A DNA stretch of 64,000 bases, taken from assembly GCF_013122565.1 (NCBI RefSeq), contig NZ_CP053258.1, one strand, 5' to 3'. A model generated the notes under the pieces. The model was not told the DNA's origin. It ran no database searches and worked only from the letters and a program-made list of their open reading frames with translations. This DNA comes from Escherichia coli (GTDB lineage Bacteria > Pseudomonadota > Gammaproteobacteria > Enterobacterales > Enterobacteriaceae). Shown in pieces: positions 24,713 through 28,873 of this stretch (position 1 is the first letter of the stretch; each line of letters begins with the position of its first letter). The position numbers were made by a program, and so were the translations under genes.

Positions 24713-26137
24713 TTACTCTAAATCTTCACCATTACTGGCAATCACTTTTTTATACCACCAGAACGATTTCTTACGCGTGCGCGCCAGCGTGCCGTTGCCT
24801 GCGTCGTCACGGTCAACAAAGACAAAACCGTAGCGTTTGCTCATTTCACCCGTAGAGGCGGAAACTAAATCAATACAGCCCCAGGTGGTGTAGCCCATCA
24901 GCGGAATGCCGTCTGCAATCGCTTCGCCCATTGCGCGGATATGTTCGCGTAAATAGCTGATGCGATAGTCATCGTTAATCTCGCCATTGGCAGCAAGTTC
25001 ATCTTTTGCGCCGAGGCCGTTTTCCACCAGAAACAGCGGCTTCTGATAGCGGTCGTACATCATGTTCATGGTGATACGCAGACCGAGTGGATCAATTCCC
25101 CAGCCCCAGTCGCTCACCTGTAGATACGGGTTACGCAGCGATTTCACTACGTTCGCCGCACTGCTATTGTTGGTGTTCATCTCCGCCGAGGCGCAGCGCG
25201 AGGCGTAATAGCTGAAAGAGACAAAATCGACGGTGTTTTTCAGGATCTCATCATCGCCCGGTGCTTTGTCGATGGTTACCTCTTTTTCGCGGAATACGCG
25301 AGCAGAGTAAGCCGGATACGCGCCCCGCGCCTGCACATCGATAAAAAACAGGTTTTCCCGATCTTTCTCCAGCGCCGCCCAGACATCTTCCGGCTTGCAA
25401 CTGTAAGGGTAGAAGTTACCGCCCGCCAGCATACAGCCCACCTGATTTTGCGGGTTAACCTCATGGGCGATTTTGGTGGCTAGCGCACTGGCAACCAGCT
25501 GGTGATGCGCGGCCTGATATTTCACCTGATCCTGATTTTCACCTTCTTCAAACACCAGACCCGCGCCGGAGAACGGGCTATGCAACATAATGTTGATTTC
25601 ATTGAAGGTTAGCCAGTATTTCACCAGACCATCAAATGCTTCAAAGCAGGTTCTGGCGTAGCGGCTGAAAAACTCCACCAGCTTGCGGTTACGCCAGGAG
25701 CCATATTCGGTGACCAGATGCATCGGCACATCGAAGTGGCACAACGTGACCAGCGGTTCGATACCGTACTTTTTACACTCTTCAAAGACAGAACGGTAAA
25801 AAGCAATGCCCTGCTGGTTGGGCGTCAGTTCATCGCCCTGCGGGAAGAGGCGGCTCCAGGCAATTGAGGTACGGAACACTTTGAATCCCATCTCTGCCAT
25901 CAGGGCGATATCTTCTTTATAACGATGATAAAAATCCGTCGCCTCATGGCTGGGATAAAACTCGTCATCGCGCAACTGAAAACGTTTTTCCAGCCCCAGT
26001 TTCACCGCCATTCGATGCTCGCCGTGCGGGATCATATCGACAGTGGTCAGCCCTTTGCCACCTTCACGGAACGCACCTTCAGACTGGTTGGCGGCAAGCG
26101 CGCCGCCCCATAAAAAACCTTGCGGAAATACTGACAT
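24713..26137 (-). CDS. ascB: 6-phospho-beta-glucosidase AscB (GH1); start MSVFP
   Basis: GH1 motifs (FLWGGA, TENG-like); follows ascF. Confidence 0.9.
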
Positions 26138-26145
26138 TTTCATCC

Positions 26146-27603
26146 TCAATTAAGACTTACTTCTTTGGCGACGGTCGGTTGTACACTCTGATGCTTTCGC
26201 GCCTCGGCAGCCGCTTCCTCAACAGGAATATCCTCAAAGCCGAGCAACAGTGTGAGGATAAACGACAGCACCACCGCCAGCGCCATGACCGCGAACACCC
26301 AGACGATGCTCATTGGATTCGCCGGATCGAAGAACTGCACGCTGGTAAATAGCCCCGGCGCTGCCATTGAGTGGCTGGCAAGCCCCGCCATACCGGCAAC
26401 CGCGCCGCAAATAAAACCGCTGATAAGACTGGCGATAAGCGGACGTTTCAGGCGGATCGCCACGCCGTATAACGCCGGTTCGGAAATCCCCGCCATAATG
26501 GCTGATGCCGCCGCTGCGAGCGCCGTCTGGCGCAGTTCCGGGTTTTTCGTTTTCCACGCCACCGCCAGTGATGAACCGCCCAGCGACAGGTTAGCGCCGA
26601 TCTCTGACGGCATGACCATCCCTTCTTTGCCGGTTTCGGCAATGGTCTGAATGATGGTTGGCGTAAAGACGCGGTGCATCCCGGTCATTACCAGCAGAGG
26701 CCACAGCGCGCCCATAATGGCGACTGAAAGCCAGCCCAGATAACCATGAATGGTGTAAACCAGCGCCGAAATGGCGCTACCGATCCAGATACCAATCGGG
26801 CCAATCAGCAGGATTGCCAGCGGTGCGGCAATCAACACAATCAGCATTGGCTTGAGGAAGTTTTTGGTCACCGCCGGTGTAATGCGATCCACCCAGCGTT
26901 CGATATATGACAGGCACCAGGTCATCACCAGCGCCGGGATCACCGTGTAGGTGTATTTCACTGCGGTGACCGGAATCAGGGCAAATTCAACATGTTCACC
27001 CTGGGCTGCTTTCGCCATCAGTTCAATAAAACTCGGATGTACCAGCACACCCGCGATGGCAATCGCCAGCGACATATTGGTTTTAAATTTGATGGCGGCA
27101 GATGCCGCGACCATTAGCGGCAGGAAGAAGAAAGCACCGTCACCAATCACATTCAGAATGGTTAAGGTCGGCGAGCCTTTTGTCAGTACGCCGCTCATCT
27201 CGAGGATCATCGCCAGCAGTTTGACCATCGATCCGCCGATAATCGCCGGGATCAGCGGTGACATGGTGCCGATCAGCGCATCGAGGATCCCCGCACCAAT
27301 GCGACGCAGTGTGAGTTTGGGTTTACCCACGGGCTGTGCGGGCTGCATATCTCCTGGCAGCAGGCTGACGACTTCCTGAAAGGCTTGTGAAACGGTATTG
27401 CCGATAATCACCTGACACTGATTGTCACTACGTACCACGCCGAGCACGCCGGGGATGGTTTTTAACGTCGGGCTGTCGATAAGCTGGTCATCTTTGATAA
27501 CAAAGCGCAAACGCGTCATACAGTGCGTGACTGCCGAGATGTTATCAACGCCGCCCAGTGCCGCTATCACCGAGCGTGCCAGCGCCGCATAATTTTTGGC
27601 CAT
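26146..27603 (-). CDS. ascF: PTS beta-glucoside (arbutin/salicin/cellobiose) EIIBC component AscF
   Basis: 485-aa ORF with N-terminal EIIB Cys motif (CMTRLRF) and polytopic EIIC domain. Confidence 0.9.
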
Positions 27604-27862
27604 CGGATTTTATCCTGTTATCAGTAGGGTAGATGTAGTTGTTATCAGTCGACGTGATGGAAAAATGCCGATGCTGAAACGGAATTAAGAAACCGGTTTC
27701 ACAAAATCATGAATAGTTGTCACTGAATAAGCAAGAGAGTTAATTGTTCATTTTTTATATTTGTGAAACCGGTCACCTGAATATTTTTCCCGCCGATTGC
27801 GCAAGGACAATCGGCAAACGGTGCAGTACACTGCGTTGATTGCGTGTAAAGGGATGAAAATG

Positions 27863-28873
27863 ATGACGACGATGCTGGAAGTGGCGAAGCGCGCCGGGGT
27901 TTCAAAAGCGACCGTTTCCCGCGTGCTTTCAGGTAATGGCTACGTCAGCCAGGAGACTAAAGATCGCGTGTTTCAGGCGGTAGAAGAGAGCGGTTACCGC
28001 CCAAATTTGCTGGCGCGCAATCTGTCGGCGAAGAGTACTCAGACGCTGGGGCTGGTAGTGACCAACACGCTTTACCACGGCATTTATTTTAGTGAATTAC
28101 TGTTTCATGCCGCGCGAATGGCGGAAGAGAAAGGGCGGCAGTTGCTATTGGCAGATGGTAAACACAGCGCCGAAGAAGAGCGCCAGGCGATTCAGTATCT
28201 GCTGGATTTGCGCTGCGACGCCATTATGATTTACCCGCGTTTTTTAAGCGTGGATGAGATCGATGACATCATTGACGCGCACAGTCAGCCGATAATGGTG
28301 CTTAATCGCCGCCTGCGCAAAAACAGCAGCCATAGCGTCTGGTGCGATCATAAACAGACCAGCTTTAATGCCGTGGCAGAGTTGATAAACGCCGGACATC
28401 AGGAGATTGCTTTCCTTACCGGCTCGATGGATTCCCCCACCAGCATTGAACGTCTTGCCGGGTATAAAGACGCGCTGGCGCAGCATGGTATTGCGCTCAA
28501 TGAAAAACTTATCGCTAACGGTAAATGGACGCCCGTCAGCGGGGCCGAAGGGGTAGAAATGTTGCTCGAACGTGGGGCTAAATTTAGCGCGTTAGTTGCC
28601 AGTAACGACGATATGGCGATAGGTGCGATGAAAGCGTTACACGAGCGCGGCGTAGCGGTGCCAGAGCAGGTGTCAGTTATCGGATTCGATGATATCGCAA
28701 TTGCCCCCTACACCGTTCCGGCGCTCTCCAGCGTAAAAATTCCGGTGACTGAGATGATTCAGGAAATTATTGGACGGCTGATTTTTATGCTCGATGGGGG
28801 CGCTTACACACCGCCGAAAACCTTCAGCGGAAAACTGATCCGCCGCGACTCACTCATTGCTCTTTCGCGATAA
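27863..28873 (+). CDS. ascG: LacI/GalR-family repressor AscG (start MTTMLEVAK)
   Basis: N-terminal HTH (LEVAKRAGVSKATVSRVLSG) and periplasmic-binding-like domain; divergent from ascFB. Confidence 0.9.
   Translation: MTTMLEVAKRAGVSKATVSRVLSGNGYVSQETKDRVFQAVEESGYRPNLLARNLSAKSTQTLGLVVTNTLYHGIYFSELLFHAARMAEEKGRQLLLADGKHSAEEERQAIQYLLDLRCDAIMIYPRFLSVDEIDDIIDAHSQPIMVLNRRLRKNSSHSVWCDHKQTSFNAVAELINAGHQEIAFLTGSMDSPTSIERLAGYKDALAQHGIALNEKLIANGKWTPVSGAEGVEMLLERGAKFSALVASNDDMAIGAMKALHERGVAVPEQVSVIGFDDIAIAPYTVPALSSVKIPVTEMIQEIIGRLIFMLDGGAYTPPKTFSGKLIRRDSLIALSR

What the first reader, a model, noticed from the sequence alone, without database searches (positions are those of the whole stretch)
24713..28873. 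asc (arbutin/salicin/cellobiose) operon with intact repressor
ascG, ascF and ascB are all full length with no IS insertion, so the locus is probably in the repressed (cryptic) state described for K-12. This is only notable as a baseline for activation studies.
Basis: established knowledge. Interest (0 to 1): 0.1.

Follow-up and report, generated by a model that had tools for sequence, protein, structure and literature searches.

The report
Ordinary intact asc beta-glucoside operon
This is the standard, undisrupted E. coli asc locus (repressor ascG plus the sugar-uptake and sugar-splitting genes ascF and ascB), arranged as in K-12 and in about 87% of complete E. coli genomes, so it is ordinary.

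Summary
ascB (24713-26137, -), ascF (26146-27603, -) and ascG (27863-28873, +) are all present and full length. The 4161-base locus aligns to K-12 MG1655 without a single gap (90 mismatches, 97.8% identity), so there is no IS element or frameshift.

Signs of working genes:
- The catalytic and phosphorylation motifs are present.
- The AscG DNA-binding domain is identical to K-12.
- Both AscG operator-like palindromes and the overlapping CRP box are identical to K-12.
- dN/dS is 0.06-0.19 in all three genes.

The locus is present in 4699 of 5426 complete E. coli genomes, and it was uninterrupted in 38 of 40 sampled across the ranking. The other 727 lack it; an ST131 genome carries three small genes in its place.

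There are two caveats. Three private missense changes are untested (AscG A225V; AscB E6Q and G286E). Published work shows that ascB is needed for growth on cellobionic acid in a strain with wild-type asc genes, so "cryptic" depends on the substrate.

Verdict: already known, low interest.

The parts
24713..26137 (-). ascB, a 6-phospho-beta-glucosidase of glycoside hydrolase family 1, 474 aa
   Evidence: NCBIfam NF007356 scores 1089.4 bits (cutoff 623) over 1-474/474, and Pfam Glyco_hydro_1 scores 443 bits. Length equals K-12, with 39 nt and 10 aa differences. The NEI motif (Glu180, acid/base) and the ENG motif (Glu372, nucleophile) are present. The closest solved structures are 6-phospho-beta-glucosidases: 6WGD at 639 bits and BglA 2XHY at 553 bits.
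26146..27603 (-). ascF, the PTS enzyme IIBC for arbutin, salicin and cellobiose, 485 aa, with no IIA domain
   Evidence: NCBIfam equivalog NF007311 scores 1029.7 bits (cutoff 722) over 1-485/485. Pfam finds only PTS_EIIB and PTS_EIIC. The phosphorylatable Cys28 sits in HCMTRLR. The exact protein is a common E. coli allele, seen on 1000 or more contigs.
26138..26145 (-). ascF-ascB spacer (GGATGAAA), with the ascB Shine-Dalgarno GAGGA overlapping the ascF stop codon
   Evidence: Identical to K-12.
27604..27862 (.). 259-nt divergent control region between ascF and ascG
   Evidence: Same length as K-12, with 4 SNPs at window 27800, 27741, 27725 and 27658 (p63, p122, p138 and p205 in the alignment numbering; coordinates converted by me). 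None falls in an AscG box or the CRP box.
27688..27701 (.). AscG operator-like palindrome, promoter-proximal (AGAAACCGGTTTCA, 13 of 14 to TGAAACCGGTTTCA)
   Evidence: It is the only site with 1 mismatch or fewer in the 64-kb window and is identical in K-12, XH990, O157:H7 and APEC O18 except at the one non-consensus end base. The consensus is recalled from Ishida et al. 2009, a paper not held in the library.
27762..27777 (.). CRP-box-like site (TGTGAAACCGGTCACC, 1 mismatch to TGTGA-N6-TCACA) overlapping a second, weaker AscG-like box (27764-27777, 11 of 14)
   Evidence: Identical in all five strains aligned.
27706..27734 (-). Inferred weak ascFB promoter: -35 TTGCTT (27734-27729), 17-nt spacer, -10 CATGAT (27711-27706)
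   Evidence: This is my inference from reading the sequence, and no experimental start site was available. It would put the start near 27699, inside the proximal AscG box, and the CRP box centre near -70.5. The consensus scan found no site passing its threshold in the intergenic region, as expected for a weak, activator-dependent promoter.
27863..28873 (+). ascG, a LacI/GalR-family repressor, 336 aa (an alternative in-frame ATG lies at 27860)
   Evidence: Pfam LacI HTH scores 76 bits, together with Peripla_BP_1 and Peripla_BP_3. It is 331/336 identical to the solved E. coli AscG structure 3DBI at 719 bits. The five differences from K-12 are A225V, D314A, F315Y, S316T and P334L. The last four occur in a common allele found on 657 contigs.
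24657..24718 (.). REP/BIME-type repeat just downstream of ascB, in the ascB-hycI spacer
   Evidence: Sub-threshold Rfam naRNA4 (REP-derived) matches of 41.5 and 23.7 bits against a gathering score of 59.5. This repeat accounts for the roughly 31 places per genome, against 1 place when the flanks were left out. The spacer differs from K-12 at 2 of 158 bases.

Best explanation
This is the canonical E. coli asc locus in its wild-type, uninterrupted configuration. ascG encodes a LacI/GalR-type repressor and is transcribed divergently from ascFB. AscG is expected to bind two palindromic boxes in the 259-nt control region. One overlaps the CRP box and would compete with the activator. The other lies over the inferred promoter and start site and would block RNA polymerase. 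Together they would keep ascFB off under ordinary conditions, because no inducer is known. If derepressed, AscF (a PTS IIBC that depends on a IIA domain supplied in trans) would take up and phosphorylate arbutin, salicin or cellobiose. AscB (a GH1 enzyme) would then hydrolyse the phospho-beta-glucoside to glucose-6-phosphate plus the aglycone. Shown here: gene identity, intactness, conserved motifs and operator sequences, purifying selection, and prevalence in the species. Inferred: the promoter position, actual repression, and transport and hydrolysis in this strain.
For: The locus aligns to K-12 without gaps over 4161 nt, at 97.8% identity, with equal gene lengths. Family assignments are above the curated cutoffs. 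AscG is 331/336 identical to PDB 3DBI. AscB Glu180 and Glu372 and AscF Cys28 are present. The AscG boxes and CRP box are identical to K-12. From the chance rate (2.59 sites per 64 kb), about 0.01 AscG-like sites would be expected in 259 nt, and 2 are found. dN/dS is 0.06-0.19 against four strains. The locus is present in 4699 of 5426 complete genomes, and 38 of 40 evenly sampled records carry it as one uninterrupted 4160-4162-bp piece. [quoted passage not shown]
Against: Nothing in the sequence contradicts this reading. Four caveats apply. AscG A225V and AscB E6Q and G286E were not seen in the 14 other AscG and 14 other AscB cluster sequences compared, and each exact protein is on record from a single 4.82-Mb chromosome (AscB also in one read-based assembly). 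Their effects are untested. Gly286 is also Gly in the 6WGD homologue. Two intergenic SNPs (27725 and 27658) are not shared with the four strains compared. ascB is not silent on cellobionic acid in a K-12 derivative with wild-type asc genes (PMC4403981).
Confidence: 0.88

Rival explanations
1. The locus is not silent. It is a normally regulated catabolic system whose natural substrate or inducer, such as cellobionic acid or another plant-derived beta-glucoside, is simply absent from standard tests. 'Cryptic' would then be a laboratory label, here as in K-12.
For: All three genes are under purifying selection, with dN/dS 0.06-0.19. The locus is kept uninterrupted in nearly all of the 87% of genomes that carry it. 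ascB is required for growth on cellobionic acid with no asc mutation (PMC4403981). ascG was recovered as an in-vivo-induced gene in EHEC (PMC6550539).
Against: No effector for AscG is known (PMC3505978). The transporter for cellobionic acid is unidentified, and ascB may be expressed from an internal promoter in ascF rather than by derepression of the operon (PMC4403981, PMC4488073). Nothing in this window tests the idea.
Confidence: 0.3
2. Private changes in this lineage weaken repression, so that ascFB is partly or fully expressed. The candidates are AscG A225V and the SNPs at 27725 (in the inferred promoter spacer) and 27658 (in the inferred 5' leader).
For: A225V was not seen in the other 14 cluster sequences compared, and the exact protein is on record from one chromosome only. 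The two SNPs are not shared with K-12, XH990, O157:H7 or APEC O18.
Against: A-to-V is a conservative change. The aligned position is Ser, Ala or Glu in the three paralogues whose alignments were printed. The HTH, the linker and both operators are unchanged. Positions 27720-27725 are polymorphic among the strains compared.
Confidence: 0.05
3. The reading frames are intact but the pathway is functionally impaired, for example by AscB G286E.
For: Gly286 is conserved between K-12 and the 6WGD homologue. G286E was not seen in the 14 other AscB sequences compared.
Against: The catalytic motifs are intact. The residue lies outside the NEI and ENG motifs, and overall dN/dS is low. A single missense change of unknown effect is weak evidence.
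Confidence: 0.05

Closest known systems
asc operon of E. coli K-12 MG1655 (ascG b2714, ascF b2715, ascB b2716; Hall and Xu 1992)
   Same: Same genes, order, orientation, lengths, spacers and neighbours (hydN and hycI), and the same AscG and CRP boxes. There is no IS in ascG.
   Different: There are 90 substitutions in 4161 nt, giving 5, 4 and 10 amino-acid differences in AscG, AscF and AscB. Three of these (AscG A225V, AscB E6Q and G286E) were not seen in the other cluster sequences compared. Four SNPs lie in the control region.
bgl operon of E. coli (bglGFB)
   Same: It is also a 'cryptic' aryl-beta-glucoside system with a PTS permease and a GH1 phospho-beta-glucosidase. AscF matches the BglF-type models in the IIBC region (TIGR01995 at 444 bits, NF007335 at 280 bits, both below their cutoffs).
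   Different: bgl is controlled by the BglG antiterminator, and BglF carries its own IIA domain. The asc locus has a LacI/GalR repressor, and AscF has only IIB and IIC domains.
chb (cel) operon of E. coli
   Same: It is another locus through which E. coli mutants gain cellobiose use (PMC4488073).
   Different: It uses a different PTS family, a GH4 enzyme (ChbF) and the regulators ChbR and NagC. [quoted passage not shown] It does not lie in this window.
asc-minus configuration of the hycI-hydN interval (for example ST131)
   Same: The flanking hyc and hydN-hypF genes are the same.
   Different: In ST131 isolate 46, three small genes (hypothetical, HTH-domain, hypothetical) occupy the interval in place of ascGFB. 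In all, 727 of 5426 genomes have no asc match. Deletions affecting asc in ST131 are noted in PMC3917908.

Membership tests
E. coli asc operon (ascG / ascFB) | ascG transcribed divergently from ascF-ascB, located between hydN and hycI | tested here: met
   collinear with K-12 2838254-2842414, with identical spacer lengths.
E. coli asc operon (ascG / ascFB) | AscF is a beta-glucoside PTS IIBC permease without a IIA domain and with an active-site Cys | tested here: met
   NF007311 equivalog scores 1029.7 bits against a cutoff of 722. Only PTS_EIIB and PTS_EIIC domains are found. Cys28 lies in HCMTRLR.
E. coli asc operon (ascG / ascFB) | AscB is a GH1 6-phospho-beta-glucosidase with both catalytic glutamates | tested here: met
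   NF007356 scores 1089.4 bits against a cutoff of 623. NEI (E180) and ENG (E372) are present.
E. coli asc operon (ascG / ascFB) | AscG is a LacI/GalR-family repressor with an N-terminal HTH | tested here: met
   Pfam LacI scores 76 bits over residues 3-48. The protein is 331/336 identical to PDB 3DBI, and 3BRQ is named AscG. Residues 1-224 are identical to K-12. No AscG-specific NCBIfam model matched; the GalR and GalS models score below their cutoffs, as expected for a paralogue.
E. coli asc operon (ascG / ascFB) | Two AscG boxes (TGAAACCGGTTTCA-like) and a CRP box upstream of ascF | tested here: met
   Sites at 27688-27701 (13 of 14), 27764-27777 (11 of 14) and a CRP-like site at 27762-27777, all identical to K-12. 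The consensus and the existence of two sites rest on Ishida et al. 2009, recalled from memory for the consensus and cited via PMC3505978 for the two sites.
E. coli asc operon (ascG / ascFB) | Wild-type (non-activated) state: no IS186 or other insertion or truncation in ascG | tested here: met
   ascG is 1011 nt, ungapped against K-12, with no internal stop.
E. coli asc operon (ascG / ascFB) | Cryptic phenotype: ascFB not expressed and no growth on arbutin, salicin or cellobiose without mutation | not testable with these tools
   This needs growth tests and transcript measurements.
bgl-type antiterminator-controlled beta-glucoside operon | A BglG/SacY-type antiterminator gene with PRD domains in the locus | tested here: not met
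   Only LacI-type, PTS IIBC and GH1 domains were found in the three genes, and no further gene fits between hycI and hydN.

The most novel reading that the evidence does not exclude
In this somewhat divergent E. coli lineage, the private AscG A225V change or the two unshared control-region SNPs alter regulation, so that ascFB is expressed or inducible without an ascG knockout. That would make it a natural non-cryptic asc allele.
Probability: 0.05. Interest if true: 0.25.

Novelty: already known. Interest (0 to 1): 0.05.

Why it matters
It matters little. The locus is a textbook example of a 'cryptic' operon, and here it is in its commonest, wild-type form. A minor point of context is that the locus is intact and under purifying selection in most E. 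coli genomes. Together with the published cellobionic-acid result, that argues the genes are used in nature. This idea is already in the literature, and the window adds nothing new to it.

Tried and rejected
- **Source organism.** An exact 40-mer from ascG gave no match in the GTDB species-representative genomes. An exact look-up of AscG found no contig. AscB was found on a Logan contig of run SRR11451224 that is identical to the window. A cluster look-up shows the exact AscG and AscB on record as E. coli proteins QJU27982.1 and QJU27271.1, each on a 4,821,968-bp contig. The strain name was not recovered.
- **Primary operator paper.** Ishida et al. 2009 (PMID 19633077, PMC2747900) is not held. 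The operator consensus is therefore from memory, and the two-site statement comes from a citing paper.
- **Promoter scan.** The sigma-70 consensus scan found nothing in the control region. The only hit lies inside ascF on the strand opposite to the gene and was disregarded.
- **RNA families.** An Rfam scan of 23500-30000 found only sub-threshold REP-like naRNA4 matches, so there is no riboswitch or sRNA.
- **Alternative starts.** The longer mechanical ORFs (ascB from a TTG start, 478 aa; ascG from a TTG start, 358 aa) were rejected as start sites in favour of the K-12 starts.
- **bgl-type regulation.** Considered and rejected, because the locus has no antiterminator gene.
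Full report
**Observation**

The ORF list for 22000-31500 shows three long frames at the reported place: 24713-26149 (-), 26146-27603 (-) and 27797-28873 (+). 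A megablast of 24000-29500 against 5426 complete E. coli genomes lands on ascB, ascF and ascG, flanked by hycI and hydN.

Using the K-12 MG1655 annotation and a direct comparison, the genes are:
- ascB, 24713-26137 (-), 1425 nt
- ascF, 26146-27603 (-), 1458 nt
- ascG, 27863-28873 (+), 1011 nt

Each has exactly the K-12 length, the same first and last residues and no internal stop. The whole 4161-nt stretch aligns to K-12 without a gap, with 90 mismatches (97.84% identity). The 8-nt ascF-ascB spacer is identical. The ascB-hycI (158 nt) and hydN-ascG (148 nt) spacers keep their K-12 lengths. There is therefore no IS element, deletion or frameshift. A read-based Logan assembly (SRR11451224) is 100% identical to window 24679-30137, which argues against an assembly artefact.

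**What the genes are**

AscF passes the NCBIfam equivalog for the cellobiose/arbutin/salicin IIBC transporter, at 1029.7 bits against a cutoff of 722, full length. It has only EIIB and EIIC Pfam domains. AscB passes the 6-phospho-beta-glucosidase model NF007356, at 1089.4 bits against a cutoff of 623, and is a GH1 protein. AscG has the LacI HTH plus periplasmic-binding-protein-like domains.

AscG is 331/336 identical to the solved E. coli AscG structure 3DBI. AscB's nearest solved relatives are 6-phospho-beta-glucosidases. The functional motifs are present: AscB NEI (Glu180) and ENG (Glu372), and AscF Cys28 in HCMTRLR.

**Variation**

Relative to K-12, AscG has A225V, D314A, F315Y, S316T and P334L. 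AscF has 4 changes and AscB has 10.
- The AscF protein is an exact, very common allele, seen on 1000 or more contigs.
- Four of the five AscG changes belong to an allele seen on 657 contigs.
- Most AscB changes recur in other alleles.
- AscG A225V and AscB E6Q and G286E were not seen in the 14 other cluster sequences compared for each protein.

A225 aligns with Ser, Ala or Glu in the three paralogues whose alignments were printed. Gly286 of AscB is also Gly in the 6WGD homologue, so G286E is the least conservative of these changes, but its effect is unknown.

Nei-Gojobori dN/dS against K-12, XH990, O157:H7 Z852 and APEC O18 is 0.10-0.19 for ascG, 0-0.08 for ascF and 0.06-0.13 for ascB. This indicates purifying selection, not decay.

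**Control region**

The 259-nt ascG-ascF intergenic region has 4 SNPs against K-12, at window 27800, 27741, 27725 and 27658 (coordinates converted by me). None of them touches the palindromes.

A search for TGAAACCGGTTTCA finds the only site in the window with 1 mismatch or fewer at 27688-27701, and a 3-mismatch site at 27764-27777. That consensus is my recollection of Ishida et al. 2009, because the paper is not held. The chance rate is 2.59 sites per 64 kb, so about 0.01 would be expected in 259 nt, and 2 are seen. A CRP-box-like site with 1 mismatch (27762-27777) overlaps the weaker box. These sites are identical in K-12, XH990, O157:H7 and APEC O18.

Reading the sequence, I infer a weak promoter: -35 TTGCTT at 27734-27729, a 17-nt spacer, and -10 CATGAT at 27711-27706. 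This would place the start near 27699, inside the proximal AscG box, with the CRP site near -70.5. The promoter is inference only. The consensus scan reported nothing in this region, which fits a weak, CRP-dependent promoter.

The layout matches the published model of two AscG sites at ascFB (PMC3505978, citing Ishida 2009).

**Mechanism**

- Shown here: an intact LacI-type repressor gene, unchanged operators, and intact permease and hydrolase genes.
- Established knowledge: AscG represses ascFB and has no known effector, and K-12 becomes Asc+ when IS186 inserts into ascG (PMC3505978, PMC4488073 and PMC4403981, all citing Hall and Xu 1992).
- Inferred for this strain: ascFB is repressed under standard conditions. 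If derepressed, AscF would phosphorylate and import beta-glucosides, using a IIA domain supplied in trans, and AscB would hydrolyse them.

**Qualification of 'cryptic'**

In a K-12 derivative with no asc mutations, ascB is required for growth on cellobionic acid (PMC4403981). A promoter inside ascF that drives ascB has been reported (PMC4488073). ascG was recovered as an in-vivo-induced gene in EHEC (PMC6550539). The label therefore depends on the substrate.

**Population context**

The 4161-nt locus matches 4699 of 5426 complete E. coli genomes, and 4697 of them carry at least 80% of it in one place. In 40 records sampled evenly down the ranking, 38 carry it as one uninterrupted piece of 4160-4162 bp. 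The two exceptions are a 98% match and an IS621-truncated ascG remnant.

The other 727 genomes have no match. In an ST131 chromosome, three small genes lie between hycI and hydN in place of the asc genes, consistent with the deletions reported in ST131 (PMC3917908). The intact state seen here is thus the species norm.

**Source**

The exact AscG and AscB proteins are on record as E. coli proteins QJU27982.1 and QJU27271.1, each on a 4,821,968-bp contig. No complete RefSeq E. coli in the collection reaches 99% identity over the asc locus, where the best is 98.6%, or over 29500-54000. The strain therefore belongs to a lineage poorly represented there. The window is otherwise collinear with K-12 2805373-2870286, apart from three indel regions.

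**Verdict**

The feature is already known and ordinary.

Noticed in passing
window 53096-55211 (ORFs 53139-54251 - and 54248-54955 -): A two-gene cassette lies between luxS and emrB and is absent from K-12. One gene encodes a 370-aa protein with a weak HD match and an AAA_33 kinase-like domain. The other encodes a 235-aa RNA_ligase (PF09414, 99 bits) protein. The pair looks like an RNA-repair module. At least 80% of it is present in 998 of 5426 complete E. coli genomes, annotated only as 'ATP-binding protein' (or 'AAA family ATPase') and 'RNA ligase family protein'.
   Followed up: partly
window 42671-42996: A 326-nt insertion relative to K-12 lies between mltB and pncC. It carries a small ORF (42677-42946, -, 79-89 aa depending on the start) with no Pfam match. 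It is found in 573 of 5426 complete genomes, annotated as 'hypothetical protein'.
   Followed up: partly
window 3774-6711: Between rpoS and pphB, the K-12 ygbI-ygbN segment is replaced by four genes: a MarR/SlyA-like regulator (3848-4255, -), a UbiX-like flavoprotein (4402-4995, +), a UbiD-family decarboxylase (4995-6422, +) and a 78-aa ORF (6433-6669, +). To my knowledge this is the well-known polymorphic mutS-rpoS region.
   Followed up: partly
window 24657-24718: A REP/BIME-type repeat lies directly downstream of ascB, with sub-threshold Rfam naRNA4 matches. It explains why the wider query hit about 31 places per genome.
   Followed up: yes
window 48799-49524: The tRNA cluster serV plus four tRNA-Arg(ACG) genes is present as in K-12, but the last spacer is 62 nt instead of 198 nt. 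ARAGORN also reports an antisense tRNA-Arg(TCG) at 48915-48986 that overlaps a real tRNA gene and is probably spurious.
   Followed up: no
whole window; No complete RefSeq E. coli genome in the collection is 99% or more identical over the asc locus or over 29500-54000. Identity to K-12 ranges from 97.0% to 99.2% between blocks. The source strain therefore sits in a sparsely sampled lineage or is mosaic in this region.
   Followed up: partly
L009 (ST131, NZ_OX637964.1 1101892-1103051); L007 and L008: The hycI-hydN interval has alternative states. ST131 has three small genes in place of ascGFB. APEC O18 has an HTH-domain gene next to ascB where K-12 and this window have hycI. WL164 carries that same HTH gene plus a hypothetical gene after hycI, then an IS621-family transposase fragment and a truncated ascG, with no ascF or ascB.
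   Followed up: partly
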